Source of the DNA: Antedon mediterranea
Taxonomy: Eukaryota; Animalia; Echinodermata
DNA: 64,000 nt
Assembly: GCF_964355755.1 (NCBI RefSeq)
Contig: NC_092679.1
Location: forward strand, 22,799,432-22,863,431
Direction: 5' to 3'
The translations under genes were made by a program, and so were the position numbers. The notes under the pieces were generated by a model, which saw only the letters and a program-made list of their open reading frames with translations, was not told where the DNA came from and ran no database searches. This document shows, piece after piece, positions 3,745-45,038 of the stretch (positions within the stretch are counted from its first letter, which is position 1; every line of letters begins with the position of its first letter).

Positions 3745-4033
3745 CTTATTACCAGTAGGAATTTAGCAGGATTGCAGTCGAAAGCTTGGATTGGACTATC
3801 CTGAATTGGTAGCGGGACCGAGTTCGGTATGCTAATGTAACAAGCTAAAGATGTTACAAATTAAAGTACGATTAAATTTAGCTGATTTAGAAGATTATTC
3901 ACCGTCATAGAATTATGAGTTGTCGAAAAATGAGTAAAATAATGAAATTATTATGTAAATGACGAAATAATAAATGTTGGACACACCCACTAAGGAAAAA
4001 CACGAACGTAGTAATTAAGGTATCATAATTTTA

Positions 4034-8528: not shown

Positions 8529-9135
8529 AATATAGTGAGCAAACACAAGGTGACTTTAGTCAGTGATTTGGTTATCAATGGTAGAAATTACCATAAAAAA
8601 AACGTTTTATAAACCTTACAATGTTCTATAGAATTCTATAGAGCTCTATGCTATTCTAAAGTATAGCACCATTTCTATATAAGCATATTATTTCAAATTT
8701 ATTTCAAATTTCAATTTCTATAGGATTTATTTTTGTCTGACTTGTTTCTTCTTTTCTATATAGAATCTATAAATTTATGAATTTAATTTGAATCTAATTA
8801 GTTAGGCCTATTATTTTTAAATAGATTTTCTTACCATTATGGGATGATCATGTAATGAATTGGATTGATAATTGTATTTTATTTTGCCATTAACAATAAT
8901 ACGTTTGCTTTTTAATCGTTTAAAACATTTTTGTGATAAGCAATTTTGAATTTAAAAGAATAGGATATTGCTATACCAGTTTATAGACTGCCAAATAAAA
9001 ATCTGAAAAATATAGACAAAACCGTAAAAACAACGCAACACTATTAACATGAAATAATTATTTATACTGTATACGGTATTTGAATTATATAGACTAATTT
9101 TTTACTCTATATCATCGATTATTATCATTAAATGC

Positions 9136-15573: not shown

Positions 15574-16142
15574 TACCCCTTTCACACCAAAACTCCGGAG
15601 TGTCTCCGGAGACACCCCGGGGTTTATGACCATTCAAAACGTCGAGAAACTCCGGAGATACCCCTTTCACACCAACCTAGCAACACCGGGGTTTATAAAA
15701 TAAAATTGTAAATGTCGCCCTCTATTTTGTTTGTTTACATCGTTGCAACGATCATTAGAATAATTTTAATTAACAATATTTTTAATTTAATAATTACTTT
15801 CAAAAGTCTCAGAAGTAATATAATATTTTATTGATACTACTTATTATTTTTTAAACCCGCTATATATTTTGTACAAATATTTAAAGTATTTAAATAAAAC
15901 TAAAGCAATGAGTGATCGTGTGAGGATGACCTTTTGACCCGAAACACTCCGGAGTTTGATGTTGGTACCTTTCACACCAAAACACCGGGGTGTCCCCGCA
16001 GTTCGCTCTCCGGAGAATGTTCAGCTGTTCAACCCCGCAGTTTTAAACTCCGGAGTTGCTTGATTTTACCTTTCACACCAAACAGCGGGACGTCAACTCC
16101 GGGGTGTCTCCGGAGTGTTTTGCTTTTGGTGTGAAAGGGGTA
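15574..16142. mobile_element. PIF/Harbinger (Tourist-like) MITE, 569 bp
   Basis: Perfect TIRs TACCCCTTTCACACCAAAA / TTTTGGTGTGAAAGGGGTA and TAA TSD (15571-15573, 16143-16145). Subterminal CCTTTCACACCA and CTCCGGAG motifs; AT-rich core; no coding capacity. Confidence 0.9.
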
Positions 16143-16171: not shown

Positions 16172-17890
16172 TTATAAAGTTGTTTCAACGTTGTTAGTAC
16201 TATCCTTTGGATCATTATGTGAAAATGATGTAGAACCCGAAGCACCATCAGTAGAATCACTAGGAGACAATAACTCTCCAGTCGGCTGCAACATGTTCAT
16301 AGCTACGTCGTAGCAAGGGGGTGGAGAAGCATGGATGACTGTTGGGAATTCTTGACTATCAATTGGAAGCGTTGTAGGACGGGCAATTGTTATCGACGGC
16401 GCGTTTTCACTATCAGTATTTAAATCTGTCGACAGCAATGAAAGACTCTCGTGGTGCTGGTTACGCTTATTTCCACGCCTTTTGGTCCGTACTGAATTGC
16501 GCTGCAACCTACGATCATTGTCGTCAATTGGAGAAGTTAATTTACATAGCTGCGTGTCAGAAAATGTCTTTCGCTTCACTTTGGAAAGCTTTCGTTTCCC
16601 TTCGTCATCGGTTGATATAAAAGCCCCGAGTGTGTTGTAAATGAAGGATGAAATGTCTCTAGTGAGACGCCTATTTGCGCTAATATCCTGACTCCCACCG
16701 TCATGTAAACTTAGATGCCCCTGTGAGGAGCGGAAGATTTGTCCATTCAATGTTGTGCTTCCGTAAGAGTTATTATTGCCCATAGCATACGCAGACGTTG
16801 ATCGAACATTTCGTATAGACCGCGTTCGCCCATTGGCATTAGTGGCTCCACGGCCGCCGTTCACAGCTTCCATGAGCAAAGCCTCCGAGTAGCTAGGAAT
16901 CACGTGTTTATTGTTTCTTATCGTCTGCTCCATACTAGTTTCGCTACTTACAGTAATATCGCGTGGTATAGTTCGGTTTCTTCCTGGTCTTAACCGATCA
17001 TTTGGATAAGTAAAGGCAAAGTTAGTTCCAAAAATCTTCTCTACCTGGTAGTGCACATGCGCAATTTTGTATTCTATCCATACGCGATATGGCCAAGATA
17101 GTAATGTTAATGAAAGTACCCAATAAACGCAAAGGTTGAAATACCAAGGAAGCTTATCTGAATAAGCATACGAAACGGTTTCATCACTAAAATCAATATC
17201 TGTTAAACTTAATCCTTCTCTTGTTTCCATATATTCATCCCTTCCGTCATTATCATTAAAGAATCGGAATCTTTGAGAAAGGTACTCGTTTTCCGCCTGT
17301 ACATTCGCGAAGATAAACGTTTTTGAAAATACAACCTGTGTCATACAATGTTCTTCCAAGCCCGCCAAATTTTTGGAAACATCTTTTACTCCAATATCGC
17401 TAAAATCAAACGCACTGGCCGCAGAGTGGGTGTTTATCCGTTCAATGTATTCTTGTGTGCTAGTGTACGAATCGCCATAGCGATACCGTGTAACATGGCG
17501 CGTGTGGCGGGCGTAGTGATACGAAATCGCCCGCCACCACACGACGGGATACGCTTCACGCATTTGAGTAATTCGTTCGTATACAACGTCGATCTTTTCG
17601 CGGTATTGTAATGCCATGCGTACGTCGCAATACCAGCACTCCACAAAATACACAAGGTATAAAAGAACCAGGAAAGCTATTGGTATGTAAAGATATCCGT
17701 CTTCACACGGGCTACCCCATTCATCATGAGGCCTTCCAGTGATCTCGTCTGTCATGATGTAGTTGACGAGTTTGGTTTCGCACCAGCCTACGACAGCAAT
17801 GCTGCCGCCCATTAGAGCAGTCAGGATCAGACATTTCCAATGTGTCTCCCGTCTCAACGATGAACAACATCCGTTCTTAGAGGGAGATTG
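16172..17890 (-). CDS. TMEM151: TMEM151-family transmembrane protein, large final coding exon (572 aa); upstream exon(s) not located
   Basis: Family motifs SLRRETHWKCLILT, SPCEDGYLYIPIAFLVLLYLVYFVECW, VWWRAISYHYARHTRHVTRYRYGDSYTSTQ, DYME-like DEYMETREG, LPWY, LSWPYRV and IPSYSEALLM. Acceptor ttatgtctttcag at 17891 precedes QSPS, matching the intron position before QRP in vertebrate TMEM151A as I recall it. Confidence 0.93.
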   Translation of the reverse strand, partial: QSPSKNGCCSSLRRETHWKCLILTALMGGSIAVVGWCETKLVNYIMTDEITGRPHDEWGSPCEDGYLYIPIAFLVLLYLVYFVECWYCDVRMALQYREKIDVVYERITQMREAYPVVWWRAISYHYARHTRHVTRYRYGDSYTSTQEYIERINTHSAASAFDFSDIGVKDVSKNLAGLEEHCMTQVVFSKTFIFANVQAENEYLSQRFRFFNDNDGRDEYMETREGLSLTDIDFSDETVSYAYSDKLPWYFNLCVYWVLSLTLLSWPYRVWIEYKIAHVHYQVEKIFGTNFAFTYPNDRLRPGRNRTIPRDITVSSETSMEQTIRNNKHVIPSYSEALLMEAVNGGRGATNANGRTRSIRNVRSTSAYAMGNNNSYGSTTLNGQIFRSSQGHLSLHDGGSQDISANRRLTRDISSFIYNTLGAFISTDDEGKRKLSKVKRKTFSDTQLCKLTSPIDDNDRRLQRNSVRTKRRGNKRNQHHESLSLLSTDLNTDSENAPSITIARPTTLPIDSQEFPTVIHASPPPCYDVAMNMLQPTGELLSPSDSTDGASGSTSFSHNDPKDSTNNVETTL

Positions 17891-19172
17891 CTGAAAGACA
17901 TAAAGTGGTATACAAACGTAACTATTCAATAGCTTTAAAACAATTTTTACCAGACAATAAACCAATAGCGGCTTAACAAACACAAAAACAAGATATCGAC
18001 GATTATATAGAGCACTGCGCAAGATAGTTAACTGTTGCTAGGTCCGTCCCATTCTACAACACTATACGCTCCCTGCAACCATCTGGGTGTTTTGTCCACC
18101 CGAGTGGCGTCAAAGTTGTTTATCTTGGTTGTACCCAGTCATACTGATCGTTTGGCGGGAATACTAGTTGTCTGGTAGCATTTTATATAATGTTGTCAGG
18201 AAGAATAAAGGAAGGAACATCTACGGTATCATTTTTGTGAAAGAAACAAAATTGCATGCCTAAACTGAATACTGTATATTATACATTTTATGCCTACACT
18301 GAATATATTATACAGTTGCCTTAATAGGGCCTAATAGCTTTCTATGCAGCGATTAAATTTAATATTCAAATCTCACACAGTGAAAATGTAAATTACAACT
18401 ATGGGAAAGAAAGTCAGAAAAGGGCAAATTAAAGTCAAATTATCAGTTTTGACAGATGCTTTGTTATTTTCCAATCAAGAGTACGATCAAAGTCCATCTT
18501 CGTTGATAACATTAGGATTACCATCTAGTTAGTCATGATTTCTAACAGCACGGTTGCTATGGGTTACTATACGCCTCTATCAAGCTTTTTTTTATGGTTT
18601 AATGATCTATTTATTTATAAATGCACTACATCAAACAAAAATACGAAGTGTTTAAATGAGGTTAAATTCTTAAATCTGTTCCTCTTAGCAATGATATATT
18701 AATCAGTGGCCATGGAGAATCACTACTTAATTTATGCCATTTTCAATTCAACTATTTCGGTTTATTGCTTTCTCGTTCTATTTTTTAAAATGTCTAATTA
18801 ATTATAAGTGTCACGTGTTGTCATTTCTCCATAATGTATATACCGCAGATACATTTATTTTGCCGTGAATATATAATTAAAATTGACCCATAATGCATTG
18901 CTTAAATAAATTTATTTGGTAGAAACCACGCCGTTAGCAATCTTGTGACAAACGGAAGGGAGCCCTCTATAGGTAAAGAAAGAAATTGGGAAAGGGAATT
19001 GTTATTATTGCCTAACGAGTGAGGCTTGTGTCAAGCTAGCCAACAATAAGCCAGCCAACAATAAGCCAGCCCACTTTTATTTTTTCCAGCCAACAATAAC
19101 TATGAAACGCCGTTTGTGCATTCTTTACATTTTCATTGTTACTTATGGCTTTTATGGTATTAGGAATTAAAT

Positions 19173-22100
19173 ATTTGTGAGAAAAACGGCGGATTGTTCC
19201 TGGGATTCACTAGGTGGGATTATACTAGGGTACCCCCTTAGTCGTCCAGTATAAGTTAGAGTGGGACCAATGGTCCCGTTTACTCAGCCCTCATCTTTAA
19301 AATTTGAGTGTAACTCAATTACAATTTTTAAAATATAGTTAAATTTGAAACTGTATTTGTGAGAAAATGGCGGATTGTTCCTGGGAGTCACTTGGTGGGA
19401 TTATACTAGGGTACCCCCTTAGTCGTCCAGTATAAGTTAGAGTGCGACCACTGGTCCCGTTTACTCAGCCCTCATCTTTAAAATTTGAGTGTAACTCAAT
19501 TACAATTTTTAAAATATAGTTAAATTTGAAACTGTATTGGTGAGAAAATGGCGGATTGTTCCTGGGAGTCACTTGGTGGGATTATACTAGGATACCTCCT
19601 TAGTCGTACACTATAAGTTAGAGTGGGACCACTGGTACCATTTACTCAGCCCTCATCTTTTAAATTTGAGTGTAACTCATTTACGATTTAAAAAATATAG
19701 TGAAATTTGATACTGTATTTGTGAGAAAATGGCGGATTGTTCCTGGGAGTCACTTGGTGGGATTATACTAGGGTACCTCCTTAGTTGTCCAGTATAAGTT
19801 AGAGTGGGACCACTGGTCCCGTTTACTCAGCCCTCATCTTTAACATTTGAGTGTAACTCATTTACGATTTTTAAAATATAGTGAAATTTGATACTGTATT
19901 TGTGAGAAAACGGCGGATTGTTCCTGAGAGTCACTTGGTGGGATTATACTAGGGTGCCTCCTTAGTAGTCCAGTATAAGTTAGAGTGGGACCACTGGTCC
20001 CGTTTACTCAGCCCTCATCTTTTAAATTTGAGTGTAACTCATTTACGATTTAAAAAATATAGTGAAATTAGATACTGTATTTGTGAGAAAACGGCGGATT
20101 GTTCCTGGGAGTCACATGGTGGCATTATACTAAGGTACGCCCTTAGTCGTCCAGTATAAGTTAGAGTGCGACCACTGGTTCCGTTTACTCAGCCCTCATC
20201 TTTTAAATTTGAGTGTAACTCAATTACGGTAAACATTTTTAAAATATAGTGAAAATTGATACTGTATTTGTGAGAAAATGGCGGATTTTTCCTTGGAGTC
20301 ACTTGGTGGGATTATACTAGGGTACCTCCTTAGTTGTCCAGTAGAAGTTAGAGTGGGACCACTGGTCCCGTTTACTCAGCCCTCATCTTTAACGTTTGAG
20401 GGTAACTCAATTACGATTAATATTTTAAAATATAGTGAAATTTGATACTGTATTTGTGAGAAAATGGCGGATTGTTCCCGAGAGTCACTTGGTGGGATTA
20501 TACTAGGGTACCTCCTTAGTTGTCCAGTTTAAGTTAGAGTGGGACCACTGGTCCCGTTTACTCAGCCCTTATCTTTAAAATTTGAGTGTAACTCATTTAC
20601 GATTAATATTTTAAAATATAGTGAAATTTGATACTGTATTTGTGAGAAAATGGCGGATTGTTCCTGGGAGCCACTTGGTGGGATTATACTAGGGTACCTC
20701 CTTAGTTGTCCAGTATAAGTTAGAGTGGGACCACTGGTCCCGTTTACTCAGCCCTCATCTTTAAAATTTGAGTGTAACTCATTTACGATTTTAAAAATAT
20801 AGTGAAATTTGATACTGTATTTGTGAGAAAACGGCGGATTGTTCCTGGGAGTCACATGGTGGCATTATACTAAGGTACGTCCTTAGTCGTCCAGTAGAAG
20901 TTAGAGTGGGACCACTGGTCCCGTTTACTCAGCCCTCATCTTTAACATTTGAGTGTAACTCAATTACGATTAATATTTTAAAATATAGTGAAATTTGATA
21001 CTGTATTTGTGAGAAAATGGCGGATTGTTCCCGAGAGTCACTTGGTGGGATTATACTAGGGTACCTCCTTAGTTGTCCAGTTTAAGTTAGAGTGGGACCA
21101 CTGGTCCCGTTTACTCCGCCCTTATCTTTAAAATTTGAGTGTAACTCAATTACGGTAAAACATTTTAAAATATAGTGAAAATTGATACTGTATTTGTGAG
21201 AAAATGGCGGATTGTTCCTGGGAGCCACTTGGTGAGATTTTACTAGGGTACCCCCTTAGTTGTGCAGTATAAGTTAGAGTGGGACCACGGGTCCCGTTTA
21301 CTCAGCCCTCATCTTTAAAATTTGAGTGTAACTCATTTACGATTTTTAAAATATAGTAAAATTTGAAACTGTATTTGTGAGAAAACGGCGGATTGTTCCT
21401 GAGAGTCACTTGGTGGGATTATATTAGGGTACCTCCTTAGTTGTCCAGTATAAGTTAGAGTGGGACCACTGGTCCCGTTTGCTCAGCCCTCATATTTAAA
21501 ATTTGAGTGTAACTCATTTACGATTTTAAAAATATAGTGAAATTTGATACTGTATTTGTGAGAAAACGGCGGATTGTTCCTGGGAGTCACATGGTGGCAT
21601 TATACTAAGGTACGTCCTTAGTCGTCCAGTATAAGTTAGAGTGCGACCACTGGTTCCGTTTACTCAGCCCTCATGTTTTAAATTTGAGTGTAACTCAATT
21701 ACTGTAAAAAATTTTAAAATATAGTGAAAATTGATACTGTATTTGTGAGAAAATGGCGGATTGTTCCTTGGATTCACTTGGTGGGATTATACTAAGGTAC
21801 CTCCTTAGTTGTCCAGTAGAAGTTAGAGTGGGACCACTGGTCCCGTTTACTCAGCCCTCATCTTTAACGTTTGAGTGTAACTCAATTACGATTAATATTT
21901 TAAAATATAGTGAAATTTGATACTGTATTTGTGAGAAAATGGCGGATTGTTCCTGGGATTCACTTGGTGGGATTATACTAGGGTACCTCCTTAGTTGTCC
22001 AGTATAAGTTAGAGTGGGACCACTGGTCCCGTTTACTCAGCCCTCATCTTTAACATTTGAGTGTAACTCATTTACGATTTTTAAAATATAGTGAAATTTG

Positions 22101-25100
22101 ATACTGTATTTGTGAGAAAACGGCGGATTGTTCCTGAGAGTCACTTGGTGGGATTATACTAGGGTGACTCCTTAGTAGTCCAGTATAAGTTAGAGTGGGA
22201 CCACTGGTCCCGTTTACTCAGCCCTCATCTTTTAAATTTGAGTGTAACTCATTTACGATTTTAAAAATATAGTGAAATTAGATACTGTATTTGTGAGAAA
22301 ACGGCGGATTGTTCCTGGGAGTCACATGGTGGCATTATACTAAGGTACGCCCTTAGTCGTCCAGTATAAGTTAGAGTGCGACCACTGGTTCCGTTTACTC
22401 AGCCCTCATCTTTTAAATTTGAGTGTAACTCAATTACGGTAAAAATTTTTAAAATATAGTGAAAATTGATACTGTATTTGTGAGAAAATGGCGGATTGTT
22501 CCTTGGAGTCACTTGGTGGGATTATACTAGGGTACCTCCTTAGTTGTCCAGTAGAAGTTAGAGTGGGACCACTGGTCCCGTTTACTCAGCCCTCATCTTT
22601 AACGTTTGAGGGTAACTCAATTACGATTAATATTTTAAAATATAGTGAAATTTGATACTGTATTTGTGAGAAAATGGCGGATTGTTCCCGAGAGTCACTT
22701 GGTGGGATTATACTAGGGTACCTCTTTAGTTGTCCAGTTTAAGTTAGAGTGGGACCACTGGTCCCGTTTACTCAGCCCTAATCTTTAAAATTTGAGTGTA
22801 ACTCATTTACGATTAATATTTTAAAATATAGTGAAATTTGATACTGTATTTGTGAGAAAATGGCAGATTGTTCCTGGGAGCCAATTGGTGGGATTATACT
22901 AGGGTACCCCCTTAGTTGTGCAGTATAAGTTAGAGTGGGACCACTGGTTCCGTTTACTCAGGCCTCATCTTTAAAATTTGAGTGTAACTCATTTACGATT
23001 TTTAAAATATAGTAAAATTTGAAACTGTATTTGTGAGAAAACGGCGGATTGTTCCTGAGAGTCACTTGGTGGGATTATACTAAGGTACCTCCTTAGTTGT
23101 CCAGTATAAGTTAGAGTGGGACCACTGGTCCCGTTTACTCAGCCCTCATCCTTAAAATTTGAGTGTAACTCATTTACGATTTTAAAAATATAGTGAAATT
23201 TGATACTGTATTTGTGAGAAAACGGCGGATTGTTCCTGGGAGTCACATGGTGGAATTATACTAAGGTACGTCCTTAGTCGTCCAGTAGAAGTTAGAGTGG
23301 GACCACTGGTCCCGTTTACTCAGCCCTCATCTTTAACGTTTGAGTGTAACTCAATTACGATTAATATTTTAAAATATAGTGAAATTTGATACTGTATTTG
23401 TGAGAAAATGGCGGATTGTTCCCGAGAGTCACTTGGTGGGATTATACTAGGGTACCTCCTTAGTTGTCCAGTTTAAGTTAGAGTGGGACCACTGGTCCCG
23501 TTTACTCAGCCCTTATCTTTAAAATTTGAGTGTAACTCAATTACGGTAAAACATTTTAAAATATAGTGAAAAATGATACTGTATTTGTGAGAAAATGGCG
23601 GATTTTTCATTGGAGTCACTTGGTGGGATTATACTAGGGTACCTCCTTAGTTGTCCAGTAGAAGTTAGAGTAGGACCACTGGTCCCGTTTACTCAGCCCT
23701 CATCTTTAACGTTTGAGTGTAACTCAATTACGATTAATATTGTAAAATATAGTGAAATTTGATACTGTATTTGTGAGAAAATGGCGGATTGTTCCCGAGA
23801 GTCACTTGGTGGGATTATACTAAGGTACCTCCTTAGTTGTCCAGTAGAAGTTAGAGTGGGACCACTGGTCCCGTTTACTCAGCCCTCATCTTTAACGTTT
23901 GAGTGTAACTCAATTACGATTAATATTTTAAAATATAGTGAAATTTGATACTGTATTTGTGAGAAAATGGCGGATTGTTCCTGGGAGTCACTTGGTGGGA
24001 TTATACTAGGGTACCTCCTTAGTTGTCCAGTATAAGTTAGAGTGGGACCACTGGTCCCGTTTACTCAGCCCTCATCTTTAACATTTGAGTGTAACTCATT
24101 TACGATTTTTAAAATATAGTGAAATTTGATACTGTATTTGTGAGAAAACGGCGGATTGTTCCTGAGAGTCACTTGGTGGGATTATACTAGGGTGACTCCT
24201 TAGTAGTCCAGTATAAGTTAGAGTGGGACCACTGGTCCCGTTTACTCAGCCCTCATCTTTTAAATTTGAGTGTAACTCATTTACGATTTTAAAAATATAG
24301 TGAAATTAGATACTGTATTTGTGAGAAAACGGCGGATTGTTCCTGGGAGTCACATGGTGGCATTATACTAAGGTACGCCCTTAGTCGTCCAGTATAAGTT
24401 AGAGTGTGACCACTGGTTCCGTTTACTCAGCCCTCATCTTTTAAATTTGAGTGTAACTCAATTACGGTAAAAAATTTTTTAAAATATAGTGAAAATTGAT
24501 ACTGTATTTGTGAGAAAATGGCGGATTTTTCCTTGGAGTCACTTGGTGGGATTATACTAGGGTACCTCCTTAGTTGTCCAGTAGAAGTTAGAGTGGGACC
24601 ACTGGTCCCGTTTACTCAGCCCTCATCTTTAACGTTTGAGGGTAACTCAATTACGATTAATATTTTAAAATATAGTGAAATTTGATACTGTATTTGTGAG
24701 AAAATGGCGGATTGTTCCCGAGAGTCACTTGGTGGGATTATACTAGGGTACCTCTTTAGTTGTCCAGTTTAAGTTAGAGTGGGACCACTGGTCCCGTTTA
24801 CTCAGCCCTAATCTTTAAAATTTGAGTGTAACTCATTTACGATTAATATTTTAAAATATAGTGAAATTTGATACTGTATTTGTGAGAAAATGGCAGATTG
24901 TTCCTGGGAGCCAATTGGTGGGATTATACTAGGGTACCCCCTTAGTTGTGCAGTATAAGTTAGAGTGGGACCACTGGTTCCGTTTACTCAGGCCTCATCT
25001 TTAAAATTTGAGTGTAACTCATTTACGATTTTTAAAATATAGTAAAATTTGAAACTGTATTTGTGAGAAAACGGCGGATTGTTCCTGAGAGTCACTTGGT

Positions 25101-28100
25101 GGGATTATACTAAGGTACCTCCTTAGTTGTCCAGTATAAGTTAGAGTGGGACCACTGGTCCCGTTTACTCAGCCCTCATCCTTAAAATTTGAGTGTAACT
25201 CATTTACGATTTTAAAAATATAGTGAAATTTGACACTGTATTTGTGAGAAAACGGTGGATTGTTCCTGGGAGTCACATGGTGGAATTATACTAAGGTACG
25301 TCCTTAGTCGTCCAGTAGAAGTTAGAGTGGGACCACTGGTCCCGTTTACTCAGCCCTCATCTTTAACGTTTGAGTGTAACTCAATTACGATTAATATTTT
25401 AAAATATAGTGAAATTTGATACTGTATTTGTGAGAAAATGGCGGATTGTTCCCGAGAGTCACTTGGTGGGATTATACTAGGGTACCTCCTTAGTTGTCCA
25501 GTTTAAGTTAGAGTGGGACCACTGGTCCCGTTTACTCAGCCCTTATCTTTAAAATTTGAGTGTAACTCAATTACGGTAAAACATTTTAAAATATAGTGAA
25601 AATTGATACTGTATTTGTGAGAAAATGGCGGATTTTTCCTTGGAGTCACTTGGTGGGATTATACTAGGGTACCTCCTTAGTTGTCCAGTAGAAGTTAGAG
25701 TAGGACCACTGGTCCCGTTTACTCAGCCCTCATCTTTAACGTTTGAGTGTAACTCAATTACGATTAATATTGTAAAATATAGTGAAATTTGATACTGTAT
25801 TTGTGAGAAAATGGCGGATTGTTCCCGAGAGTCACTTGGTGGGATTATACTAAGGTACCTCCTTAGTTGTCCAGTTTAAGTTAGAGTGGGACCACTGGTT
25901 CCGTTTACTCAGCCCTTATCTTTAAAATTTGAGTGTAATTCATTTACGATTAATATTTTAAAATATAGTGAAATTTGATACTGTATTTGTGAGAAAATGG
26001 CGGATTGTTCCTGGGAGCCACTTGGTGAGATTATACTAGGGTACCCCCTTAGTTGTGCAGTATAAGTTAGAGTGGGACCACTGGTCCCGTTTACTCAGCC
26101 CTCATCTTTAAAATTTGAGTGTAACTCATTTACGATTTTTAAAATATAGTAAAATTTGAAACTGTATTTGTGAGAAAACGGCGGATTGTTCCTGAAAGTC
26201 ACTTGGTGGGATTATACTAGGGTACCTCCTTAGTTGTCCAGTATAAGTTAGAGTGGGACCACTGGTCCCGTTTACTCAGCCCTCATCTTTAAAATTTGAG
26301 TGTAACTCATTTACGATTTTAAAAATATAGTGAAATTTGATACTGTATTTGTGAGAAAACGGCGGATTGTTCCTGGGAGTCACATGGTGGCATTATACTA
26401 GGGTACGTCCTTAGTCGTCCAGTATAAGTTAGAATGCGACCACTGGTTCCGTTTACTCAGCCCTCATGTTTTAAATTTGAGTGTAACTCAATTACTGTAA
26501 AAAATTTTAAAATATAGTGAAAATTGATACTGTATTTGTGAGAAAATGGCGGATTGTTCCTTGGATTCACTTGGTGGGATTATACTAAGGTACCTCCTTA
26601 GTTGTCCAGTAGAAGTTAGAGTGGGACCACTGGTCCCGTTTACTCAGCCCTCATCTTTAACGTTTGAGTGTAACTCAATTACGATTAATATTTTAAAATA
26701 TAGTGAAATTTGATACTGTATTTGTGAGAAAATGGCGGATTGTTCCCGAGAGTCACTTGGTGGGATTATACTAGTGTACCTCCTTAGTTGTCCAGTTTAA
26801 GTTAGAGTGGGACCACTGGTCCTGTTTACGCAGCCCTTATCTTTAAAATTTGAGTGTAACTCATTTACGATTAATATTTTAAAATATAGTGAAATTTGAT
26901 ACTGTATTTGTGAGAAAATGGCGGATTGTTCCTGGGAGCCACTTGGTGGGATTATACTAGGGTACGCCCTTAGTTGTGCAGTATAAGTTAGAGTGGGACC
27001 ACTGGTCCCGTTTACTCAGCCCTCATCTTTAAAATTTGAGTGTAACTCATTTACGATTTTTAAAATATAGTAAAATTTGAAACTGTATTTGTGAGAAAAC
27101 GGCGGATTGTTCCTGAGAGTCACTTGGTGGGATTATAGTAGGGTACCTCCTTAGTTGTCCAGTATAAGTTAGAGTGGGACCACTGGTCCCGTTTACTCAG
27201 CCCTCATCTTTAAAATTTGAGTGTAACTCATTTACGATTTTTAAAATATAGTGAAATTTGATACTGTATTTGTGAGAAAACGGCGGATTGTTCCTGAAAG
27301 TCACTTGGTGGGATTATACTAGGGTACCCCCTTAGTCGTCCAGTATAAGTTAGAGTGGGACCACTGGTCCCGTTTACTCAGCCCTCATCTTTAAAATTTG
27401 AATGTAACTCATTTACGATTTTAAAATATAGTGAAAATTGATACTGTATTTGTGAGAAAATGGCGGATTGTTCCTTGGATTCACTTGGTGGGATTATACT
27501 AAGGTACCTCCTTAGTTGTCCAGTAGAAGTTAGAGTGGGACCACTGGTCCCGTTTACTCAGCCCTCATCTTTAACGTTTGAGTGTAACTCAATTACGATT
27601 AATATTTTAAAATATAGTGAAATTTGATACTGTATTTGTGAGAAAATGGCGGATTGTTCCCGAGAGTCACTTGGTGGGATTATACTAGTGTACCTCCTTA
27701 GTTGTCCAGTTTAAGTTAGAGTGGGACCACTGGTCCTGTTTACGCAGCCCTTATCTTTAAAATTTGAGTGTAACTCATTTACGATTAATATTTTAAAATA
27801 TAGTGAAATTTGATACTGTATTTATGAGAAAATGGCGGATTGTTCCTGGGAGCCACTTGGTGGGATTATACTAGGGTACGCCCTTAGTTGTGCAGTATAA
27901 GTTATAGTGGGACCACTGGTCCCGTTTACTCAGCCCTCATCTTTAAAATTTGAGTGTAACTCATTTACGATTTTTAAAATATAGTAAAATTTGAAACTGT
28001 ATTTGTGAGAAAACGGCGGATTGTTCCTGAGAGTCACTTGGTGGGATTATAGTAGGGTACCTCCTTAGTTGTCCAGTATAAGTTAGAGTGGGACCACTGG

Positions 28101-29999
28101 TCCCGTTTACTCAGCCCTCATCCTTAAAATTTGAGTGTAACTCATTTACGATTTTTAAAATATAGTGAAATTTGATACTGTATTTGTGAGAAAACGGCGG
28201 ATTGTTCCTGAAAGTCACTTGGTGGGATTATACTAGGGTACCCCCTTAGTCGTCCAGTATAAGTTAGAGTGGGACCACTGGTCCCGTTTACTCAGCCCTC
28301 ATCTTTAAAATTTGAGTGTAACTCATTTACGATTTTAAAAATATAGTGAAATTTGATACTGTATTTGTGAGAAAACGGCGGATTGTTCCTGGGAGTCACA
28401 TGGTGGCATTATACTAAGGTACGTCCTTAGTCGTCCAGTAGAAGTTAGAGTGGGACCACTGGTCCCGTTTACTCAGCCATCATCTTTAACGTTTGAGTGT
28501 AACTCAATTACGAATAATATTTTAAAATATAGTGAAATTTGATACTGTATTTGTGAGAAAATGGCGGATTGTTCCCGAGAGTCACTTGGTGGGATTATAC
28601 TAGGGTACCTCCTTAGTTGTCCAGTAGAAGTTAGAGGGGGACCACACTGGTCCCGTTTATTCAGCCCTCATCTTTAACGTTTGAGTGTAACTCAATTACG
28701 ATTAATATTGTAAAATATAGTGAAATTTGATACTGTATTTGTGAGAAAATGGCGGATTGTTCCCGAGAGTCACTTGGTGGGATTATACTAGGGTACCTCC
28801 TTAGTGGTCCAGTTTAAGTTAGAGTGGGACCACTGGTCCCGTTTACTCAGCCCTTATCTTTAAAATTTGAGTGTAACTCATTTACGATTAATATTTTAAA
28901 ATATAGTGAAATTTGATACTGTATTTGTGAGAAAATGGCGGATTGTTCCTGGGAGCCACTTGGTGGGATTATACTAGGGTACCCTCTTAGTTGTGCAGTA
29001 TAAGTTAGAGTGGGACCACTGGTCCCGTTTACTCAGCCCTCATCTTTAAAATTTGAGTGTAACTCATTTACGATTTTTAGAATATAGTAAAATTTGAAAC
29101 TGTATTTGTGAGAAAACGGCGGATTGTTCCTGAGAGTCACTTGGTGGGATTATACTAGGGTACCTCCTTAGTTGTCCAGTATAAGTTAGAGTGGGACCAC
29201 TGGTCCCGTTTACTCAGCCCTCATCTTTAAAATTTGAGTGTAACTCATTTACGATTTTAAAAATATAGTGAAATTTGATACTGTATTTGTGAGAAAACGG
29301 CGGATTGTTCCTGGGAGTCAAATGGTGGCATTATACTAAGGTACGTCCTTAGTCGTCCAGTATAAGTTGGAGTGCGACCACTGGTTCCGTTTACTCAGCC
29401 CTCATCTTTTAAATTTGAGTGTAACTCAATTACGGTAAAAAAATTTAAAATATAGTGAAAATTGATACTGTATTTGTGAGAAAATGGCGGATTGTTCCTT
29501 GGAGTCACTTGGTGGAATTATACTAGGGTACCTCCTTAGTTGTCCAGTAGAAGTTAGAGTGGGACCACTGGTCCCGTTTACTCAGCCCTCATCTTTAAAA
29601 TTTGAGTGTAACTCATTTACGATTTTTAAAATATAGTAAAATTTGAAACTGTATTTGTGAGAAAACGGCGGATTGTTCCTGAGAGTCACTTGGTGGGATT
29701 ATAGTAGGGTACCTCCTTAGTTGTCCAGTATAAGTTAGAGTGGGACCACTGGTCCCGTTTACTCAGCCCTCATCTTTAAAATTTGAGTGTAACTCATTTA
29801 CGATTTTTAAAATATAGTGAAATTTGATACTGTATTTGTGAGAAAACGGCGGATTGTTCCTGAAAGTCACTTGGTGGGATTATACTAGGGTACCCCCTTA
29901 GTCGTCCAGTATAAGTTAGAGTGGGACCACTGGTCCCGTTTACTCAGCCCTCATCTTTAAAATTTGAGTGTAACTCATTTACGATTTTTAAAATATAGT
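19173..29999 (+). repeat. Satellite array, left arm (about 59 units of 181-186 bp)
   Basis: GTGAGAAAA recurs at 19177, 19359, 19540, 19721 and onward. The unit includes GGCGGATTGTTCC, GGGACCACTGGTCCC and TTGAGTGTAACTCA. Confidence 0.98.
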
Positions 30000-30019
30000 T
30001 TAGAGTGGGACCACTGGTA

Positions 30020-33000
30020 CAAATTTCACTATATTTTATTTTTTTAATTTTTTTTATTTATTAATTTAAAAGATGAGGGCTGAGTAAACGGAACAAGTGG
30101 TACCACTCTAACTTTTACTGGACGACCAAGGAGGTACCCTAGTACAATCCCACCAAGTGACTCTCAGGAACAATCCGCCATTTTTTCACAAATACAGTTT
30201 CAAATTTCACTATATTTTAAAAATCGTAAATGAGTTACACTCAAATTTTAAAAATGAGGGCTGAGTAAACGGGACCAGTGGTCCCACTCTAACTTATACT
30301 GGACGACTAAGTGGGTACCCAAGTATAATCCCACCAAGTGACTCCCAGGAACAATCCGCCATTTTCTCACAAATACAGTATCAAATTTCACTATATTTTT
30401 AAAATCGTAAATGAGTTACACTCAAATTTTAAAGATGAGGGCTGAGTAAACCGGACCAGTGGTCCCACTCTAACTTATACTGGACGACTAAGGGGGTACC
30501 CTAGTATAATCCCACCAAGTGACTGCCAGGAACAATCCGCCATTTTCTCACAAATACAGTATCAAATTTCACTATATTTTAAAATATTAATCGTAATTGA
30601 GTTACACTCAAATTTTAAAGATAAGGGCTGAGTAAACGGGACCAGTGGTCCCACTCTAACTTAAACTGGACAACTAAGGAGGTACCCTAGTATAATCCCA
30701 CCAAGTGACTCCCAGGAACAATCCGCCATTTTCTCACAAATACAGTATCAATTTTCACTATATTTTAAATTTTTTTATCGTAATTGAGTTACACTCAAAT
30801 TTAAAAGATGAGGGCTTAGTAAACGGAACCAGTGGTCCCACTATAACTTATACTGGACGACTAATCCCACCAAGTGACTCTCAGGAACAATCCGCCGTTT
30901 TCTCACAAATACAGTTTCAAATTTCACTATAATTTAAAAATCGTAAATGAGTTACACTCAAATTTTAAAGATGAGGGCTGAGTAAACGGGACAAGTGGTC
31001 CCACTCTAACTTATACTGGACGACTAAGGGGGTACCCTAGTATAATCCCACCAAGTGACTCCAAGGAACAATCCGCCATTTTCTCACAAATACAGTATCA
31101 AATTTCACTATATTTTAAAAATCGTAAATGAGTTACACTCAAATTTTAAAGATGAGGGCTGAGTAAACCGGACCAGTGGTCCCACTCTAACTTATACTGG
31201 ACGACTAAGGAGGTACCCTAGTATAATCCCACCAAGTGACTCCCAGGAACAATCCGCCATTTTCTCACAAATACAGTATCAATTTTCACTATATTTTAAA
31301 TTTTTTTATCGTAATTGAGTTACACTCAAATTTAAAAGATGAGGGCTGAGTAAACGGAACCAGTGGTCGCACTCTAACTTATACTGGACGACTAAGGACG
31401 TACCTTAGTATAATCCCACCATGTGACTCCCAGGAAAAATCCGCCGTTTTCTCACAAATACAGTATCTAATTTCTCTATATTTTTAAAATCGTAAATGAG
31501 TTACACTCAAATTTAAAAGATGAGGGCTGAGTAAACGGGACCAGTGGTCCCACTCTAACTTCTACTGGACGACTAAGGAGGCACCCTAGTATAATCCCAC
31601 CAAGTGACTCTCAGGAACAATCCGCCGTTTTCTCACAAATACAGTATCAAATTTTACTATATTTTAAAAATCGTAAATGAGTTACACTCAAATTTAAAAG
31701 ATGAGGGCTGAGTAAACGGGACCAGTGGTCCCACTCTAACTTATACTGGACGACTAAGGGGGTACCCTAGTATAATCCCACCAAGTGACTCTAAGGAACA
31801 ATCCGCCGTTTTCTCACAAATACAGTATCAAATTTCACTATATTTTAAAAATCGTAAATGAGTTACACTCAAATTTTAAAGATGAGGGCTGAGTAAACGG
31901 GACCAGTGGTCCCACTCTAACTTATACTGGATAACTAAGAAGGTACCCTAGTATAATCCCACAAAGTGACTCCCAGGAACAATCCGCCATTTTCTCACAA
32001 ATACAGTATCAAATTTCACTATATTTTTTAAAATCGTAAATGAGTTACACTCAAATTTTAAAGATGAGGGCTTAGTAAACGGGACCAGTGGTCCCACTAT
32101 AACTTATACTGGACGACTAAGGGTACGGTGTACCCTAGTATAATCCCACCAAGTGACTCTCAGGAACAATCCGCCGTTTTCTCACAAATACAGTTTCAAA
32201 TTTCACTATATTTTAAAAATCGTAAATGAGTTACACTCAAATTTTAAAGATGAGGGCTTAGTAAACGGGACCAGTGGTCCCACTATAACTTATACTGGAC
32301 GACTAAAGGGGTACCCTAGTATAATCCCACCAAGTGACTCCAAGGAACAATCCGCCATTTTCTCACAAATACAGTATCAAATTTCACTATATTTTAAAAA
32401 TCGTAAATGAGTTACACTCAAATTTTAAAGATGAGGGCTGAGTAAACCGGACCAGTGGTCCCACTCTAACTAATACTGGACGACTAAGGAGGTACCCTAG
32501 TATAATCCCACCAAGTGACTCCCAGGAACAATCCGCCGTTTTCTCACAAATACAGTATCAAATTTCACTATATTTTAAAATATTAATCGTAATTGAGTTA
32601 CACTAAAAAACTTTAAAGATGAGGGCTGAGTAAACGGAACCAGTGGTCGCACTCTAACTTATACTGGACGACTAAGGACGTACCCTAGTATAATCCCACC
32701 AAGTGACTCCCAGGAACAATCCGCCATTTTCTCACAAATACAGTATCAATTTTCACTATATTTTAAAAATGTTATCGTAATTGAGTTACACTCAAATTTA
32801 AAAGATGAGGGCTGAGTAAACGGGACCAGTGGTCCCACTCTAACTTATAGTGGACGGATATGGAGGTTCCCTAGTATAATCCCACCAAGTGACTTCCAGG
32901 AACAATCCGCCATTTTCTTACAAATACAGTATCAAATTTCACTATATTTTAAAATATTAATCGTAAGTGAGTTAAACTCAAATTTAAAAGATGAGGGCTG

Positions 33001-34203
33001 AGTAAACGGGACCAGTGGTCCAACTCTAACTTTACTGGACCACTAAGGAGGTACCCTAGTATAATCCCACCAAGTGACTCCCAGGAACAATCGGCCATTT
33101 TCTCACAAATACAGTATCAAATTTCACTATATTTTAAAATATTAATCGTAATTGAGTTACACTCAAATTTAAGAGATGACGGTTTAGTAAACGGGGCCAG
33201 TGGTCCCACTCTAACTTATACTGGACGACTAATGACGTACCCTAGTATAATCCCACCATGTGACTCCCAGAAACAATCCGCCGTTTTCTCACAAATACAG
33301 TATCAAATTTCACTATTTTTTAAAAATCGTAAATGAGTTACACTCAAATTTAAAAGATGAGGGCTTAGAGTAAACGGGACCAGTGGTCCCACTTTAACTT
33401 ATACTGGACGACTAAGGGGGTACCCTAGTATAATCCCACCAAATGACTCTCAGGAACAATCCGCCGTTTTCTCACAAATACAGTATCAAATTTCACTATA
33501 TTTTTAAAATCGTAAATGAGTTACACTCAAATTTTAAAGATGAGGGCTGAGTAAACGGGACCAGTGGTCCCACTCTAACTTATACTGGACAACTAAGGAG
33601 GTACCCTAGTATAATCCCACCAAGTGACTCCCAGGAACAATCCGCCATTTTTTCACAAATACAGTATCAAATTTCACTATATTTTTTAAATCGTAAATGA
33701 GTTACACTCAAATTTAAAAGATAAGGGCTGAGTAAACTATACCAGTGGTCCCACTCTAACTTTTCCTGTACGACTTAGGAGGCACCCTAGTATAATCCCA
33801 CCAAGTGACTCTCAGGAACAATCCGCCATTTTCTCACCAATACAGTTTCAAATTTAACTATATTTTAGAAATTGTAATTGAGTTACACTCAAATTTTAAA
33901 GATGAGGGCTGAGTAAACGGGACCAGTGGTCGCACTCTAACTTATACTGGACGACTAAGGGGGTACCCTAGTATAATCCCACCAAGTGACTCCCAGGAAC
34001 AATCCGCCATTTTCTCACAAATACAGTTTCAAATTTAACTATATTTTAAAAATCATAATTGAGTTACACTCAAATTTTAAAGATGAGGGCTGAGTAAACG
34101 GGACCATTGGTCCCACTCTAACTTATACTGGACGACTAAGGGGGTACCCTAGTATAATCCCACCAAGTGAATCCCAGGAACAATCTGCCGTTTTTCTCAC
34201 AAA
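30020..34203 (-). repeat. Same satellite in inverted orientation, right arm (about 23 units)
   Basis: Reverse complement of the left-arm unit (GGAACAATCCGCC, GGGACCAGTGGTCCC, TGAGTTACACTCAA) repeated in tandem. Confidence 0.98.
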
Positions 34204-35727
34204 TATTTAATTCCTAATACCATAAAAGCCATAGTAACAATGAAAATGTAAAGAATGCACAAACGGCGTTTCATAGTTATTGTTGGCTGGAAAAAATAAA
34301 AGTGGGCTGGCTTATTGTTGGCTGGCTTATTGTTGGCTAGCTTGACACAAGCACGAGTGAGCCCGTCAGTACAGCACGTGACAAAAGAGGTACAGTATGT
34401 ATTTTATCATCGTATGCGACTAGTTAGGTCTATATTCATACAGAAAAACCATTTAGAAACTCGGCGTGCAATGTTACCACAAAGATGTAGAACCAGTGGA
34501 GACTTGGGAAATGCATTATGCCCTCTATAGTTTACTATTACCGATTCTGTATCTATAGGGGGCGCCAGATTCATCAATCTAAAACATAAGATTTTCTTGA
34601 TTCACGTATAACAAAAAGATTGAATAAATTAATAATATAAATAAAAAAAATTATCTAATTCATGAAATATTCTCTCAATATACAACTCATTAACCATCCT
34701 TTTTTGTACACTATTGTTGGCCAACACACGCTGGCAAAGCCGGAAATAGTGTATCACGTTAAGAGATATGACATTTTTTCTTTTTCTTTTCTCTTAGTAT
34801 TCTACAGTACACTCTAATCATCTAGCCTATCTAGAGAATTAAACTCAGCTATTACCGAATGATTTATTTTACCATTGTCAGTAAATAGTTAGCGCTGGCC
34901 TTCTGAAGTTATAACAGCTTAATTGTATATGACAGTTCGGTTCTCTGAATTTAAATTCATCATTATTTTCTGAATAATAAAACAATTAGGTGATGTCTTC
35001 ATTCTCACAAAGCAGCTTTATCGGTTATATCACTCAACTTATTTATATGACACAGTTGTGCTTCTTAAAATTAATGATAATAATTTAATGAATAATAACA
35101 CTGAAAACCATTACGATCGTGCAGTACATACAGAACTTGGAAGTTAATAGCAACTAGTATTATCAAAGGTGAATATTATGACTATGTATTACTCTAGAAA
35201 TGTGTTCGTTTGTTTCCAGGCAAGAAATGTTTGACATTTATTTATAGGCAGGCTACTACAACAATATATCGTCGTTCAAAGTTACAGGCGCTAAAATATG
35301 GAATAACCTACCAACTGAAATTAAATTTTAAAAATTCCTCCAACAATTGCTCCCGTTTAAAGCTAGATATCGATTTCATTTTTCCCCAATTTGTTTGTAT
35401 TTAAGACAGGACCACAATGCAAAACAGGTTTTCTTTTACTTTATTGTGTAATCATGTATAAAGATTTTGTTAAATAGATAAAAATATCGATAACGATGTT
35501 AAATTTAATTGTGATTGGTAATAATAATAATGATTTTGTGGGATATATTCCCGAATGATCATAACATCAAAACGGTACTGGGCATGACAAAACCGGTCAA
35601 CGATCTGTGCAGCCACTAAAATATGGTAGCATGTATCCGAGACATGACTTTTAGTTCATGGAAAGCGCACATCTTAATTGAACAAGGCCAACAGCCATAA
35701 GTCGCGTGCTAAAACGCATAGTGATAC

Positions 35728-38383: not shown

Positions 38384-39337
38384 GCGATTTTTTTTTTCGT
38401 ACATAAGTTGGGGACCCCTTCATGAAACGTCACAAAATAAACATGAATAATTCATCAGTTAAATTTTCTTGTTCCATGTGCACCCAAGCGTATAGCAACA
38501 AGAAGTGATTACACAATACATTACAACTGCGACACGATTCTAGGCCTATCTCCGCTGTGGTTGCGGCGTGCGATTTCATAGAAGAATAGCGTCGTTTTGT
38601 GTGGATTGTCGAAATAATCAGCCTTTGGTTTATGGTGTTTTTAATATAATTTATTAATAAAAAAATTACGTTATAAAATTATAGTTTCTATTAATACTAT
38701 TAGGCCTAATTATTAAATATTAGTCTCTAAACCCATTTCTATTCTAGGCCTAGTAGTAGCTGTGTGGTGTGTGTGACGTGTGTGTGTTAGGTATGACACA
38801 GTCCCAGTAATAAGTCAGCAAAATTAAACAATAAACATTACACAAAAATACATTTTTTATTCTCGTGAGTCTAATCTTCCCATCTCATGTGTTCATATTA
38901 TACGCGCATTTTTAAAAGTTCCTTTGAGTACATGCATATTGTTTGATAATAAAATAGCAGAATTAAAAAATTACAGTACACAAATTATATACATTTTTTA
39001 TTCTTGTGGGTCTAAGCTTTCTTTGGGCTATGTCCAATTAACTACAGTACTTAGTTTAATATCTTGCCTAGCTGTCGATTAGCCTCGACACATTTTGCAT
39101 AGTGGTGTGTGTGTGAAGATTAAGAAGAGTGCGCGAAGGCAATCACGTGAATTGACCTAGAATCCTGGGCCTACTGTAGAAAGAATCGTATCGCAGTTTA
39201 GTTGTGCGTGTAATCACTTCTTGTTGCTATACGCTTGGGTGCACACGGAACAACAAATTTAACTGATGAATTATTCATGTTTATTTTGTGACGTTTCATG
39301 AGGGGGTCCCCAACTTATGTACGAAAAAAAAAATCGC
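38384..39337. mobile_element. Non-autonomous DNA transposon with ~160-bp TIRs (MULE-like)
   Basis: 38384-38540 (GCGATTTTTTTTTCGTACATAAGTTGGGGACCCC...) is inverted at about 39182-39337. Flanks GCCCCGCCC / GCCCGCCCC form an imperfect 9-bp (or exact 6-bp CCCGCC) duplication. Confidence 0.85.
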
Positions 39338-43301: not shown

Positions 43302-43750
43302 AATAATAATAATAATAATAATAATAAATAATATATTTATACAGGATAAAACAATCAGATAACAGTGTATCTGTTTTACATTGTGGTCCTGTCTTAATCA
43401 AAATATACAAAAGAGAAACTTAATTAAATATAATACATGTCAGTTTTTTATGAAAAGAAATGAGATTTGTATCTAGCCTTAAAGGACGTAATTGTTGGTG
43501 CCGATTTAATATTAATTGGTAAATTGTTCCATATTTTTGCGCCTGCAACTTTAAAGGACGAATTCATTTTACTAAGGGTGTATTTAGGTATTGTTACATT
43601 CAAATTTTCTACTCCACGTGTTAAGTGGGTGTGAATATCGCGAATCAATTCAATTTCATTTACTAATCTAATTGGTGCAAGGCCGTAAACACATTTATAC
43701 ATTAGACATGCTAGGGAGAAATCTCGTTTCTCTTCAATATGACGTGACAC
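43302..43750 (-). mobile_element. Short 3' fragment of a CR1/L2-group LINE
   Basis: ORF 43448-43750: LMYKCVYGLAP...SFKVAGAKIWNNLPINIKSAPTITSFKARYK (conserved ORF2 C-terminus), then 3' UTR and a (TTA)n tail at 43302-43326. Confidence 0.85.
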
Positions 43751-44904
43751 TTAGGGCAGAAACATATAGTTGAAAAGTGTAACATCGAAGTCCACAGCAA
43801 ATAGGGGCGACATTGTTTGTGTATGCGCTAAACAAATACATTAACATTATGTTGCACTTACAGAACTTTATTTTAAAAATCGGATGTATATGTTGGGTAG
43901 AGGATAGAGATTAAGGAAATTGATTCTTGTAGACTCAATAAGGAAAGTTAAGCAGATGTTCATCTCTCATAAACGAAGATATAGCGACAACATTTCAATG
44001 ATAATAGTTACCGCTTACCGTTGTTCATACAACTCAACAGCTACAATTCAATCCGAATTGAGAGAGTGAGATCAGCAAAACAATAAAATGTATTGTCCTC
44101 CACACCCCATTTTTAGTTATTCATTTCCATATTCACTTCCAAAGAAAAAAAAGATTTCACTTATTATGAAAAGACAAAATAATCCGGTAACTTTAACAAA
44201 AAACCTATTGTCTGGACAACTGGACTATTGTTTTTTTGAACAAGTTTCTTAATTTCTCAAATCGAATATACAGAATAAAACTTCTCCTCACCATTTTTTT
44301 AAAGAATATATGTATTTATTTTTTCAAAAAAAGATATACATAATAGAGAGGGCGTAGTTGATTCGTGAACAAATAAATCTCTGCTCTTTCGTCTCTTTAA
44401 AGAAAACCAAAGAAACTAAATCTATTTTCAATCGCAGAATTTATATTTGTTGTAAATTTTAGAAACAATGATACATTGAAATAAATAAGAATTGTTTTTA
44501 TTATCCAATTCCAAGCGAATTCCATTAGAAGTCCCGAAATAAAAAGTTTCTTTTTGTCACTTTAAGATATTGAAAATATATTACAATATCAGGTGAATGA
44601 TAAAAATGATGTATAGTACGAATAATTAGAATTACACTTAACTTGCAGAATTCGGCCCAAGGGGCTTAAAACAGATTGATCATACTCTTACCAATTACAT
44701 TCGGATCTTATTTCGTCAATTTAAATATACTTGTTTGCTCTGTATTGTATAGTGTTGAAGAGCTATTTTGCACATTGTTTGAAACTACCAATAATAAAGG
44801 AAGATTTAAATTTAGAAAAATGTATTTAAGAGCGTATAGATCTATTTTTAGATTATATAGAACATGCTATTATTATACAGTACTATAATATTAACTAAGA
44901 GTAA

Positions 44905-45038
44905 AGCTCTGTCTACACTATACAACTTTATGTGATAAAAAAATGTGGTGTGCCCATATATGGACATACCATTATATTTGGGCACATCACATTTTTTTGT
45001 CAAATTAATTTGATAGTGTAGACAGTGTAGACAGAGCT
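44905..45038. mobile_element. Small palindromic MITE (Harbinger-like); partial second copy at about 45068-45150
   Basis: TIRs AGCTCTGTCTACACT / AGTGTAGACAGAGCT flanked by TAA and TTA. Internal inverted TGTGCCCATATAT / ATATTTGGGCACA. Confidence 0.8.

What the first reader, a model, noticed from the sequence alone, without database searches (positions are those of the whole stretch)
19015..34361. A 15.3-kb foldback transposon whose inverted termini have grown into two opposed satellite arrays
Seen: a perfect 9-bp TSD (ACGAGTGAG), G...C termini, a ~150-bp unique outer inverted domain differing by about one indel, then about 59 forward and 23 reverse copies of a 181-186-bp unit. There is no coding region. 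Known: 9-bp TSDs and long modular TIRs typify Mutator-related foldback elements such as Drosophila FB; sea-urchin TU elements have similar modular TIRs, and Drosophila virilis Tetris TIR subunits seeded satellite arrays. Inference: this is a young non-autonomous element acting as a satellite-DNA vehicle, caught during array expansion. It may be an undescribed family mobilised by a MULE transposase encoded elsewhere.
Basis: partly seen in the sequence, partly recalled or inferred. Interest (0 to 1): 0.88.

Follow-up and report, generated by a model that had tools for sequence, protein, structure and literature searches.

The report
Satellite-laden foldback transposon in feather star
A gene-less 15-kb piece of jumping DNA, almost all of it two opposed runs of a 181-base repeat, lies beside the main exon of a feather star gene (likely in its intron) and is missing from another copy of the same site, so it likely jumped in recently already carrying kilobases of satellite-like DNA, a kind of element known from flies and beetles.

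Summary
Observation confirmed. The element spans 19024-34352 (15,329 bp) between two ACGAGTGAG copies, with 149-bp outer arms differing by one indel, 58.9 + 22.7 opposed 181-bp units, no middle domain and no ORF. The host is the crinoid Antedon mediterranea, and the site is likely intron 1 of TMEM151B-like. A public contig crosses the site with one ACGAGTGAG and no element (empty allele); a related organism lacks the right arm there too. Other flanks join at the same terminus in three runs, so this is a multicopy family. Rough depth ratios give about 50 units per end in this species against 3-5 in two relatives. The tips (13-bp palindrome, 15-bp repeats) resemble Muta1, so a Mutator-type transposase likely acts in trans; none was found. 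Right-arm units differ far more than the flanking alleles do, so the element probably arrived with kilobase arrays; only the left arm has recent block duplications. The architecture is known (Tetris; Tribolium Rehavkus with up to 50 repeats and >11-kb termini). My searches found no crinoid report. The scan's notes hold no look-alike, only one analogous case elsewhere. Verdict: new member of a known kind.

The parts
19015..19023 (+). left target-site duplication ACGAGTGAG (9 bp)
   Evidence: present once in the empty allele
19024..19036 (+). left terminal palindrome, 5-bp arms around a 3-bp centre (GCTTG-TGT-CAAGC); likely the transposase end signal (inferred by analogy to Muta1)
   Evidence: analogy from PMC5499845
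19033..19100 (+). left subterminal 15-bp repeats (2.6 copies) plus a third core copy at 19088; likely transposase-binding repeats (inferred)
19024..19172 (+). left outer TIR domain, 149 bp
19172..29999 (+). left array, 58.9 units of 181-189 bp, with higher-order blocks
21744..25801 (+). recent tandem duplication of an 11-unit block (21744-23771 against 23772-25801; 12 differences in 2030 bp)
30000..30062 (.). centre with no middle domain: a 19-21 bp filler matching unit positions ~79-98, then the start of a decayed innermost right unit with a 25-bp A/T-only patch
30063..34205 (-). right array, 22.7 units in the opposite orientation, no recent block duplication
34205..34352 (-). right outer TIR domain (148 bp) with 15-bp repeats (34305-34343) and terminal palindrome (34340-34352)
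34353..34361 (+). right target-site duplication ACGAGTGAG
16172..17890 (-). host gene context: large coding exon of TMEM151B-like (residues 10-581). The first 9 residues are not encoded in the window, so the element likely lies in intron 1, 1,125 bp from the splice acceptor

Best explanation
This is a gene-less foldback DNA transposon that sits at one allele of a site in the crinoid Antedon mediterranea and is absent from another; it was likely cut and pasted here by a Mutator-type (MULE/Rehavkus-like) transposase made by another copy, likely while already carrying several kilobases of tandem repeat. Shown: the 9-bp duplication, the empty allele, the multicopy ends, no coding capacity, and block duplications in the left arm. 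Inferred, step by step: (1) The transposase needs only the tips (terminal palindrome plus 15-bp repeats). The tips therefore stay near-identical and whatever lies inside rides along. (2) The middle domain, presumably with the transposase gene in an ancestor, was lost by a deletion that left a short templated filler, as interrupted gap repair or end joining does. (3) The 181-bp unit grows by unequal exchange or slippage between out-of-register units, each arm on its own. (4) By rough depth ratios the arms hold about ten times more units per end in this species than in two relatives, so transposition would scatter satellite-like arrays into gene-rich DNA.
For: Empty allele: one X1 contig (length 3788, depth 266.8) covers 17700-19023 at record 1529-2852 and 34353-35297 at record 2844-3788, a 9-base overlap equal to one TSD. 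In organism B, single contigs in X6 and X8 align from 34353 onward, preceded by 73 and 72 letters that do not fit the right arm. Other flanks join at the terminus: X5 2 contigs at 19023, X8 3 at 19022, X6 3 and X8 4 at 34352, with mixed consensus (agreement 0.64-0.68). Unit-to-outer-TIR depth ratios: X1 52 and X5 47 (organism A), X8 3.5 and X6 5.3 (B), X9 3.1 (C); this copy holds 41 units per arm on average. Right-arm units are old relative to the insertion: the median nearest neighbour differs at 6 places per unit (~3%) and only 2 of 21 units have a neighbour within 2 differences, whereas the X1 empty allele differs from the window's flanks at 3 of 2269 bases and X5 at 11 of 1290. Left arm: 44 of 57 units have a neighbour within 2 differences, and lag 11 stands out. 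The tip anatomy matches Muta1 (terminal palindrome, 12-15 bp subterminal repeats, 8-9 bp TSD, 145-151 bp TIR; passages of PMC5225508 and PMC5499845). A second G...C element with a 9-bp TSD lies 4 kb away.
Against: No transposase was linked to these ends: no genome is held and the element encodes nothing. A 9-bp TSD does not single out Mutator, since Merlin also makes 8-9 bp TSDs and foldback form has arisen in several superfamilies. The depth figures are sums over contigs and the tool says they are no copy number; TIR-to-flank ratios varied about five-fold between runs of one organism (278 vs 47; 281 vs 59), and units under 85% alike were not counted. The high ratio could come from a few giant free arrays rather than from long arms. 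The youngest left-arm duplications (8 in 1844; 3 in 734) are not significantly older than the allele split (p 0.06-0.07, or 0.4-0.5 if the X1 contig mixes two haplotypes), so the size at insertion may have been about 9-10 kb rather than 15. No listed contig showed the filled junction or the centre. X1 may be the window's own source and so not independent. The empty allele could be a precise excision (about 90% of Muta1 excisions with TSDs are precise). The unit shares no significant motif with the tips (220 of 1000 shuffles scored as high).
Confidence: 0.7

Rival explanations
1. A short-armed foldback inserted here and both arrays were filled in afterwards, by gene conversion or gap repair copying from longer arrays elsewhere plus local duplication. 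The long form would then be a dead end, not a vehicle.
For: Relatives have about 3-5 units per end. The arms are not mirror images beyond ~560 bp. The centre carries a templated filler, a mark of copying during repair. The left-arm duplications cannot be dated before the insertion. In-place growth is argued for Tetris and for Galileo CDSTR177 and for another finding of this scan (unchecked).
Against: The right arm alone holds 21 full units about 3% from their nearest neighbours with no duplicated block, while the flanking alleles differ by 0.1-0.9%; local duplication after insertion cannot give that. The species-wide ratio of about 50 units per end is close to this copy's 41.
Confidence: 0.2
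2. The element is a real foldback transposon but its partner transposase is not Mutator-type (Merlin, P/Galileo-like or another TIR superfamily).
For: Merlin has 8-9 bp TSDs and sometimes internal tandem repeats. Galileo is a P-superfamily foldback. No transposase is in hand.
Against: Merlin ends are conserved 5'-GG and these ends are 5'-GC. The palindrome-plus-repeat tip matches Aedes MULEs. Most foldbacks are placed in Mutator. Galileo's 7-bp TSD is recalled, from no call.
Confidence: 0.12
3. The ends are real but the interior is mis-assembled: arms of wrong length, or a true middle domain dropped at 30000-30062.
For: The centre was not tested with reads. The 25-bp A/T-only patch is odd. Near-identical blocks in the left arm could be assembly duplicates.
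Against: The arms are not mirror images, so this is not a read fold-back chimera. The duplicated blocks carry 0.4-0.8% real differences. Both TSDs and the empty allele fit to the base. There are no N bases.
Confidence: 0.06

Closest known systems
Rehavkus foldback transposons of Tribolium (Rehavkus-1_TC, -3_TC; TfSat06, TfSat23, TfSat25/TCsat12); PMC12581902, passages of main text and supplements seen; PMC6446971, passages seen
   Same: Inverted termini made of a TIR plus subterminal tandem repeats (TfSat15 164 bp, TfSat23 167 bp); 9-bp TSD; species-specific growth (6-8 against up to 50 repeats; termini sometimes over 11 kb).
   Different: Those elements keep a central part; this one has none. 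Rehavkus hosts are listed as arthropods and annelids in PMC6446971. In the passages seen, transposition of long-armed copies is suggested from distribution; here an empty allele is shown. No sequence comparison with Rehavkus was made.
Tetris of Drosophila virilis (PMC4079207, passages seen)
   Same: Non-autonomous foldback with a flanking domain plus ~220-bp tandem units, 8-10 bp TSDs, arrays up to 66 copies, partner transposase not found, placed in Mutator by TSD.
   Different: Complete Tetris copies have TIRs up to 1.7 kb and a middle domain; the authors suggest long arrays disrupt transposition and lie in heterochromatin. Here an intact TSD-bounded copy with 59+23 units is present or absent beside a gene exon.
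Muta1/Muta5 MULEs of Aedes aegypti (PMC5225508, PMC5499845, passages seen)
   Same: 145-151 bp TIR, terminal motif (palindromic in Muta1), 12-15 bp subterminal repeats, 8-9 bp TSD, many non-autonomous derivatives.
   Different: Nine short repeats against about three here; no inner 181-bp arrays are described; elements are about 3 kb and encode a transposase.
Drosophila FB and sea-urchin TU foldback elements (FB recalled; TU seen only as a mention and a reference title in PMC4079207)
   Same: Long modular inverted arms; TU shows that foldbacks occur in echinoderms.
   Different: Not compared by sequence. Their repeat units are recalled as much shorter and their arms as smaller; this rests on no call.

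Membership tests
Foldback elements (structural class) | long inverted arms with an outer domain and internal tandem repeats | tested here: met
Foldback elements (structural class) | inserted by a transposase: TSD and empty site | tested here: met
Foldback elements (structural class) | dispersed copies sharing the terminus | tested here: met
   different flanks join at the terminus in 3 of 5 runs laid (X5, X6, X8), among the loose ends shown
Mutator/MULE superfamily | 8-10 bp TSD | tested here: met
   9 bp at this one copy; TSDs of other copies could not be paired
Mutator/MULE superfamily | long TIR (>100 bp), in Aedes families with a terminal motif and 9-15 bp subterminal repeats | tested here: met
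   149 bp, 13-bp palindrome, 15-bp repeats (compare)
Mutator/MULE superfamily | MULE DDE transposase in an autonomous copy with the same ends | not testable with these tools
   no genome held; the element has no ORF over 113 codons
Rehavkus | transposase of the Rehavkus clade with PHD finger | not testable with these tools
   definition from PMC6446971; no transposase in hand
Rehavkus | TIR plus variable subterminal tandem repeats, 9-bp TSD | tested here: met
Rehavkus | sequence similarity to a Repbase/Dfam entry | not testable with these tools
   neither library is offered
Merlin | terminal 5'-GG | tested here: not met
   ends are 5'-GC; definition from PMC8101967
Satellite DNA (free long arrays) | long arrays independent of the element's ends | tested here: inconclusive
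   about 50 units per end by rough depth fits arms like these, but free arrays are not excluded

The most novel reading that the evidence does not exclude
In Antedon mediterranea an active foldback family has turned into pure satellite carriers. Typical copies are 10-20 kb, have about 50 units per arm and no middle domain, still jump into gene introns, and reached this state after the split from close relatives whose copies carry only 3-5 units per end. The species' dispersed satellite arrays would then be made by transposition of whole arrays, seen here as a present/absent insertion, against the suggestion that long arrays stop such elements from moving.
Probability: 0.4. Interest if true: 0.62.

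Novelty: new member of a known kind. Interest (0 to 1): 0.45.

Why it matters
That transposons carry satellite arrays around genomes is mostly argued from where the arrays lie. Here one copy gives the event itself: intact ends, a 9-bp duplication, an empty allele, and arrays too diverged to have grown by local copying since insertion. With relatives that seem to keep short arms, the family offers a comparative system to ask how long an array a transposase can move and why arms grew in one lineage. It would also extend the fly and beetle pattern to a crinoid. It is no new mechanism.

Tried and rejected
No whole genome is held, so there was no copy census and no transposase search. Exact-pattern scans gave 0 matches: the unit and the tip in metagenome contigs and the tip in viral contigs. 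Rfam found 0 matches at E<=1 in 18900-19900. Neither the unit nor the outer domain folds better than shuffles (z -0.39 and 0.09), so the short palindromes in the unit are given no role; the palindrome count counted one palindrome several times and was not used. No shared motif between tip and unit (220 of 1000 shuffles as high). No third terminal motif in the window beyond chance. The centre filler matches exactly only unit L02 (19618), but one base decides that, so no donor is claimed. The Fisher test used a guessed count and is discarded; redone it is not significant. No RNA holder was listed (X5 is RNA only by guess), which says nothing on expression. X5 has no cover at the insertion point and says nothing on that allele. 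Read fold-back artefact rejected (arms not mirror images, TSD, empty allele). Units L58 and R22 (partial or decayed) and the two outermost partial units were left out of the distance counts and the tree (78 of 80 split units used). Literature: 'crinoid' + 'satellite DNA' 0 papers; 'Antedon' + 'transposable' + 'genome' 8 listings, none on this by title or abstract start; the echinoderm search gave 2 unrelated listings; one search gave 2 listings, one on Helentron-carried repeats in oyster (PMC7492417, listing only). The Phantom paper was not held. Repbase, Dfam and subscription journals were not searched.
Full report
Observation. The sequence is as described. ACGAGTGAG flanks the element at 19015-19023 and 34353-34361 and occurs nowhere else in the window. 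The inverted match between the ends stops exactly at these copies, giving a 15,329-bp element with G...C termini. The outer 149 bp differ by one indel. Inside are 58.9 forward and 22.7 reverse copies of a 181-bp unit, 169-189 bp long. No frame is open for more than 113 codons and Rfam finds nothing in the tip or first units.

Host and place. The ORF at 16172-17890 (-) is TMEM151 and is 100% identical to residues 10-581 of the TMEM151B-like protein of the crinoid Antedon mediterranea. Its first nine residues are not in the window, so by that gene model the element lies in intron 1, 1,125 bp from the acceptor. This placement is inferred.

Anatomy. Each tip starts with a 13-bp palindrome (GCTTG-TGT-CAAGC) followed by 2.6 copies of a 15-bp repeat and a third core copy. 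The arms mirror each other over about 560 bp (7 differences) and then stop corresponding. Units differ on average at about 13 places within and between arms, and arm labels are mixed on the tree (11 changes against 18.7 for shuffles; bootstrap rough; 78 of 80 units). The left arm has grown recently: an 11-unit block is duplicated in tandem (12 differences in 2030 bp), 4-5 unit blocks recur at 0.4-0.8%, and 44 of 57 units have a neighbour within 2 differences. In the right arm only 2 of 21 do; windows of 21 left units give 4-18. There is no middle domain. The left array stops mid-unit, a 19-21 bp piece of the unit follows, and the right arm begins with a decayed unit holding a 25-bp A/T-only patch. 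I read this as a deletion with templated filler (inference).

Is it a real insertion? Ten coded runs hold the left flank; five were laid, in two calls of four. One X1 contig of 3788 bases covers 17700-19023 and 34353-35297 with a 9-base overlap: the empty allele with one TSD. It differs from the window at 3 of 2269 bases. In organism B, contigs of X6 and X8 align from 34353 with 73 and 72 preceding letters that do not fit the right arm, so the site is most likely empty there too; those letters were not displayed. X1 may be the window's own source. X5 does not cover the point. An empty allele can also arise by precise excision, but the state in B favours empty as ancestral. The filled junction and the centre were not seen in any listed contig, and the tables were cut.

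Is it a family? Contigs with other flanks join at the terminus in X5 (2), X8 (3 and 4) and X6 (3), with mixed consensus letters. A variant end with a one-base change in the palindrome and no 15-bp repeats joins the outer domain near 19139 in X1 and X5. Depth over the outer domain is 15 to 280 times that of the flank, by run. Depth over the unit is 52 and 47 times that of the outer domain in the two organism A runs, against 3.5 and 5.3 in B and 3.1 in C. The tool warns that these sums are no copy number, and the TIR-to-flank ratio varied five-fold within an organism. The within-run ratio was stable across two samples each of A and B, so I take a roughly tenfold lineage difference as likely, not shown. 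It cannot tell long arms from a few free arrays.

How it likely works. A transposase made elsewhere binds the tips, cuts and pastes, and leaves a 9-bp duplication. In Muta1 the terminal palindrome aids binding, one subterminal repeat per end suffices, and more repeats raise excision (PMC5499845, passages). Aedes MULEs have 8-9 bp TSDs and 9-15 bp subterminal repeats (PMC5225508, passages). The match is of anatomy, not sequence, and no partner was found. The unit shares no significant motif with the tips, so it is more likely cargo than binding site. Did it move long? The right arm's units lie about 3% from their nearest neighbours while the flanking alleles differ by 0.13% (X1) to 0.85% (X5), so local copying since insertion cannot have built it. 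At least the right arm and the non-duplicated part of the left, roughly 9-10 kb by my estimate, probably arrived together. Whether the youngest duplications came before or after is undecided (p 0.06-0.5). Import of units by repair from other copies remains the main rival.

What is known. Rehavkus elements of Tribolium carry 6-8 repeats per terminus in one species and up to 50 in its sibling, TfSat06 forms inverted termini sometimes over 11 kb, and a related repeat reached 80.5 kb (PMC12581902, passages and supplement passages). Tetris has the same plan, 8-10 bp TSDs, arrays up to 66 copies and no known partner (PMC4079207, passages). Rehavkus is defined by its transposase and listed for arthropods and annelids (PMC6446971, passages). 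Merlin fails on its GG ends (PMC8101967, passages). Foldback form is polyphyletic (PMC3169594, passages), and Galileo grew a satellite in place (PMC13553610, passages). So it works like Rehavkus or Tetris; membership of Mutator is likely but rests on TSD and tips only. Searches for a crinoid or echinoderm report found none, but Repbase, Dfam and subscription journals were out of reach. The scan's own notes hold no look-alike and nothing from this genome; one analogous array-in-transposon case from another genome is unchecked.

Verdict. A real, apparently young, non-autonomous foldback element: a new member of a known kind. Its value lies in the empty allele, the missing middle and the apparent lineage-specific arm growth. 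Interest 0.45.

Noticed in passing
window 38384-39337: A second, unrelated 954-bp element with G...C ends, TIRs of about 135 bp (84 bp at 99% plus 53 bp at 94%) and a 9-bp TSD GCCCCGCCC, 4 kb from the finding; likely another Mutator-type MITE.
   Followed up: partly
loose ends at window 19139 and 34233 in runs X1 and X5: A short-tipped variant of the same family: the terminus differs by one base in the palindrome, lacks the 15-bp repeats and joins the outer domain about 115 bp in.
   Followed up: partly
window ~44893-45120, 55367-55850, 58644-58832, 60771-60891: A small palindromic MITE-like family; the copy at 55.4-55.8 kb carries 3.3 tandem copies of a 104-bp unit that includes part of the arm, a small version of arm amplification.
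   Followed up: no
window 47510-49687 (+); fragments 2574-3418 (+), 35269-35476 and 43322-43750: A 725-aa non-LTR reverse transcriptase ORF (RVT_1, E 1.8e-35), an RT fragment, and related high-copy 3' pieces.
   Followed up: no
window 16172 to beyond 64000 (-): The first nine residues of TMEM151B-like (P0001) are not encoded in the window, so intron 1 would exceed 46 kb if the gene model is right.
   Followed up: partly
window 8166-8529, 50673-51270, 56637-57103: Minisatellite-like arrays: 29 bp x 12.7; a loose ~100-120 bp repeat; and an 11/22/33-bp repeat.
   Followed up: no
window 15578-16115: Short direct and inverted 28-36 bp repeats just past the TMEM151 stop codon.
   Followed up: no
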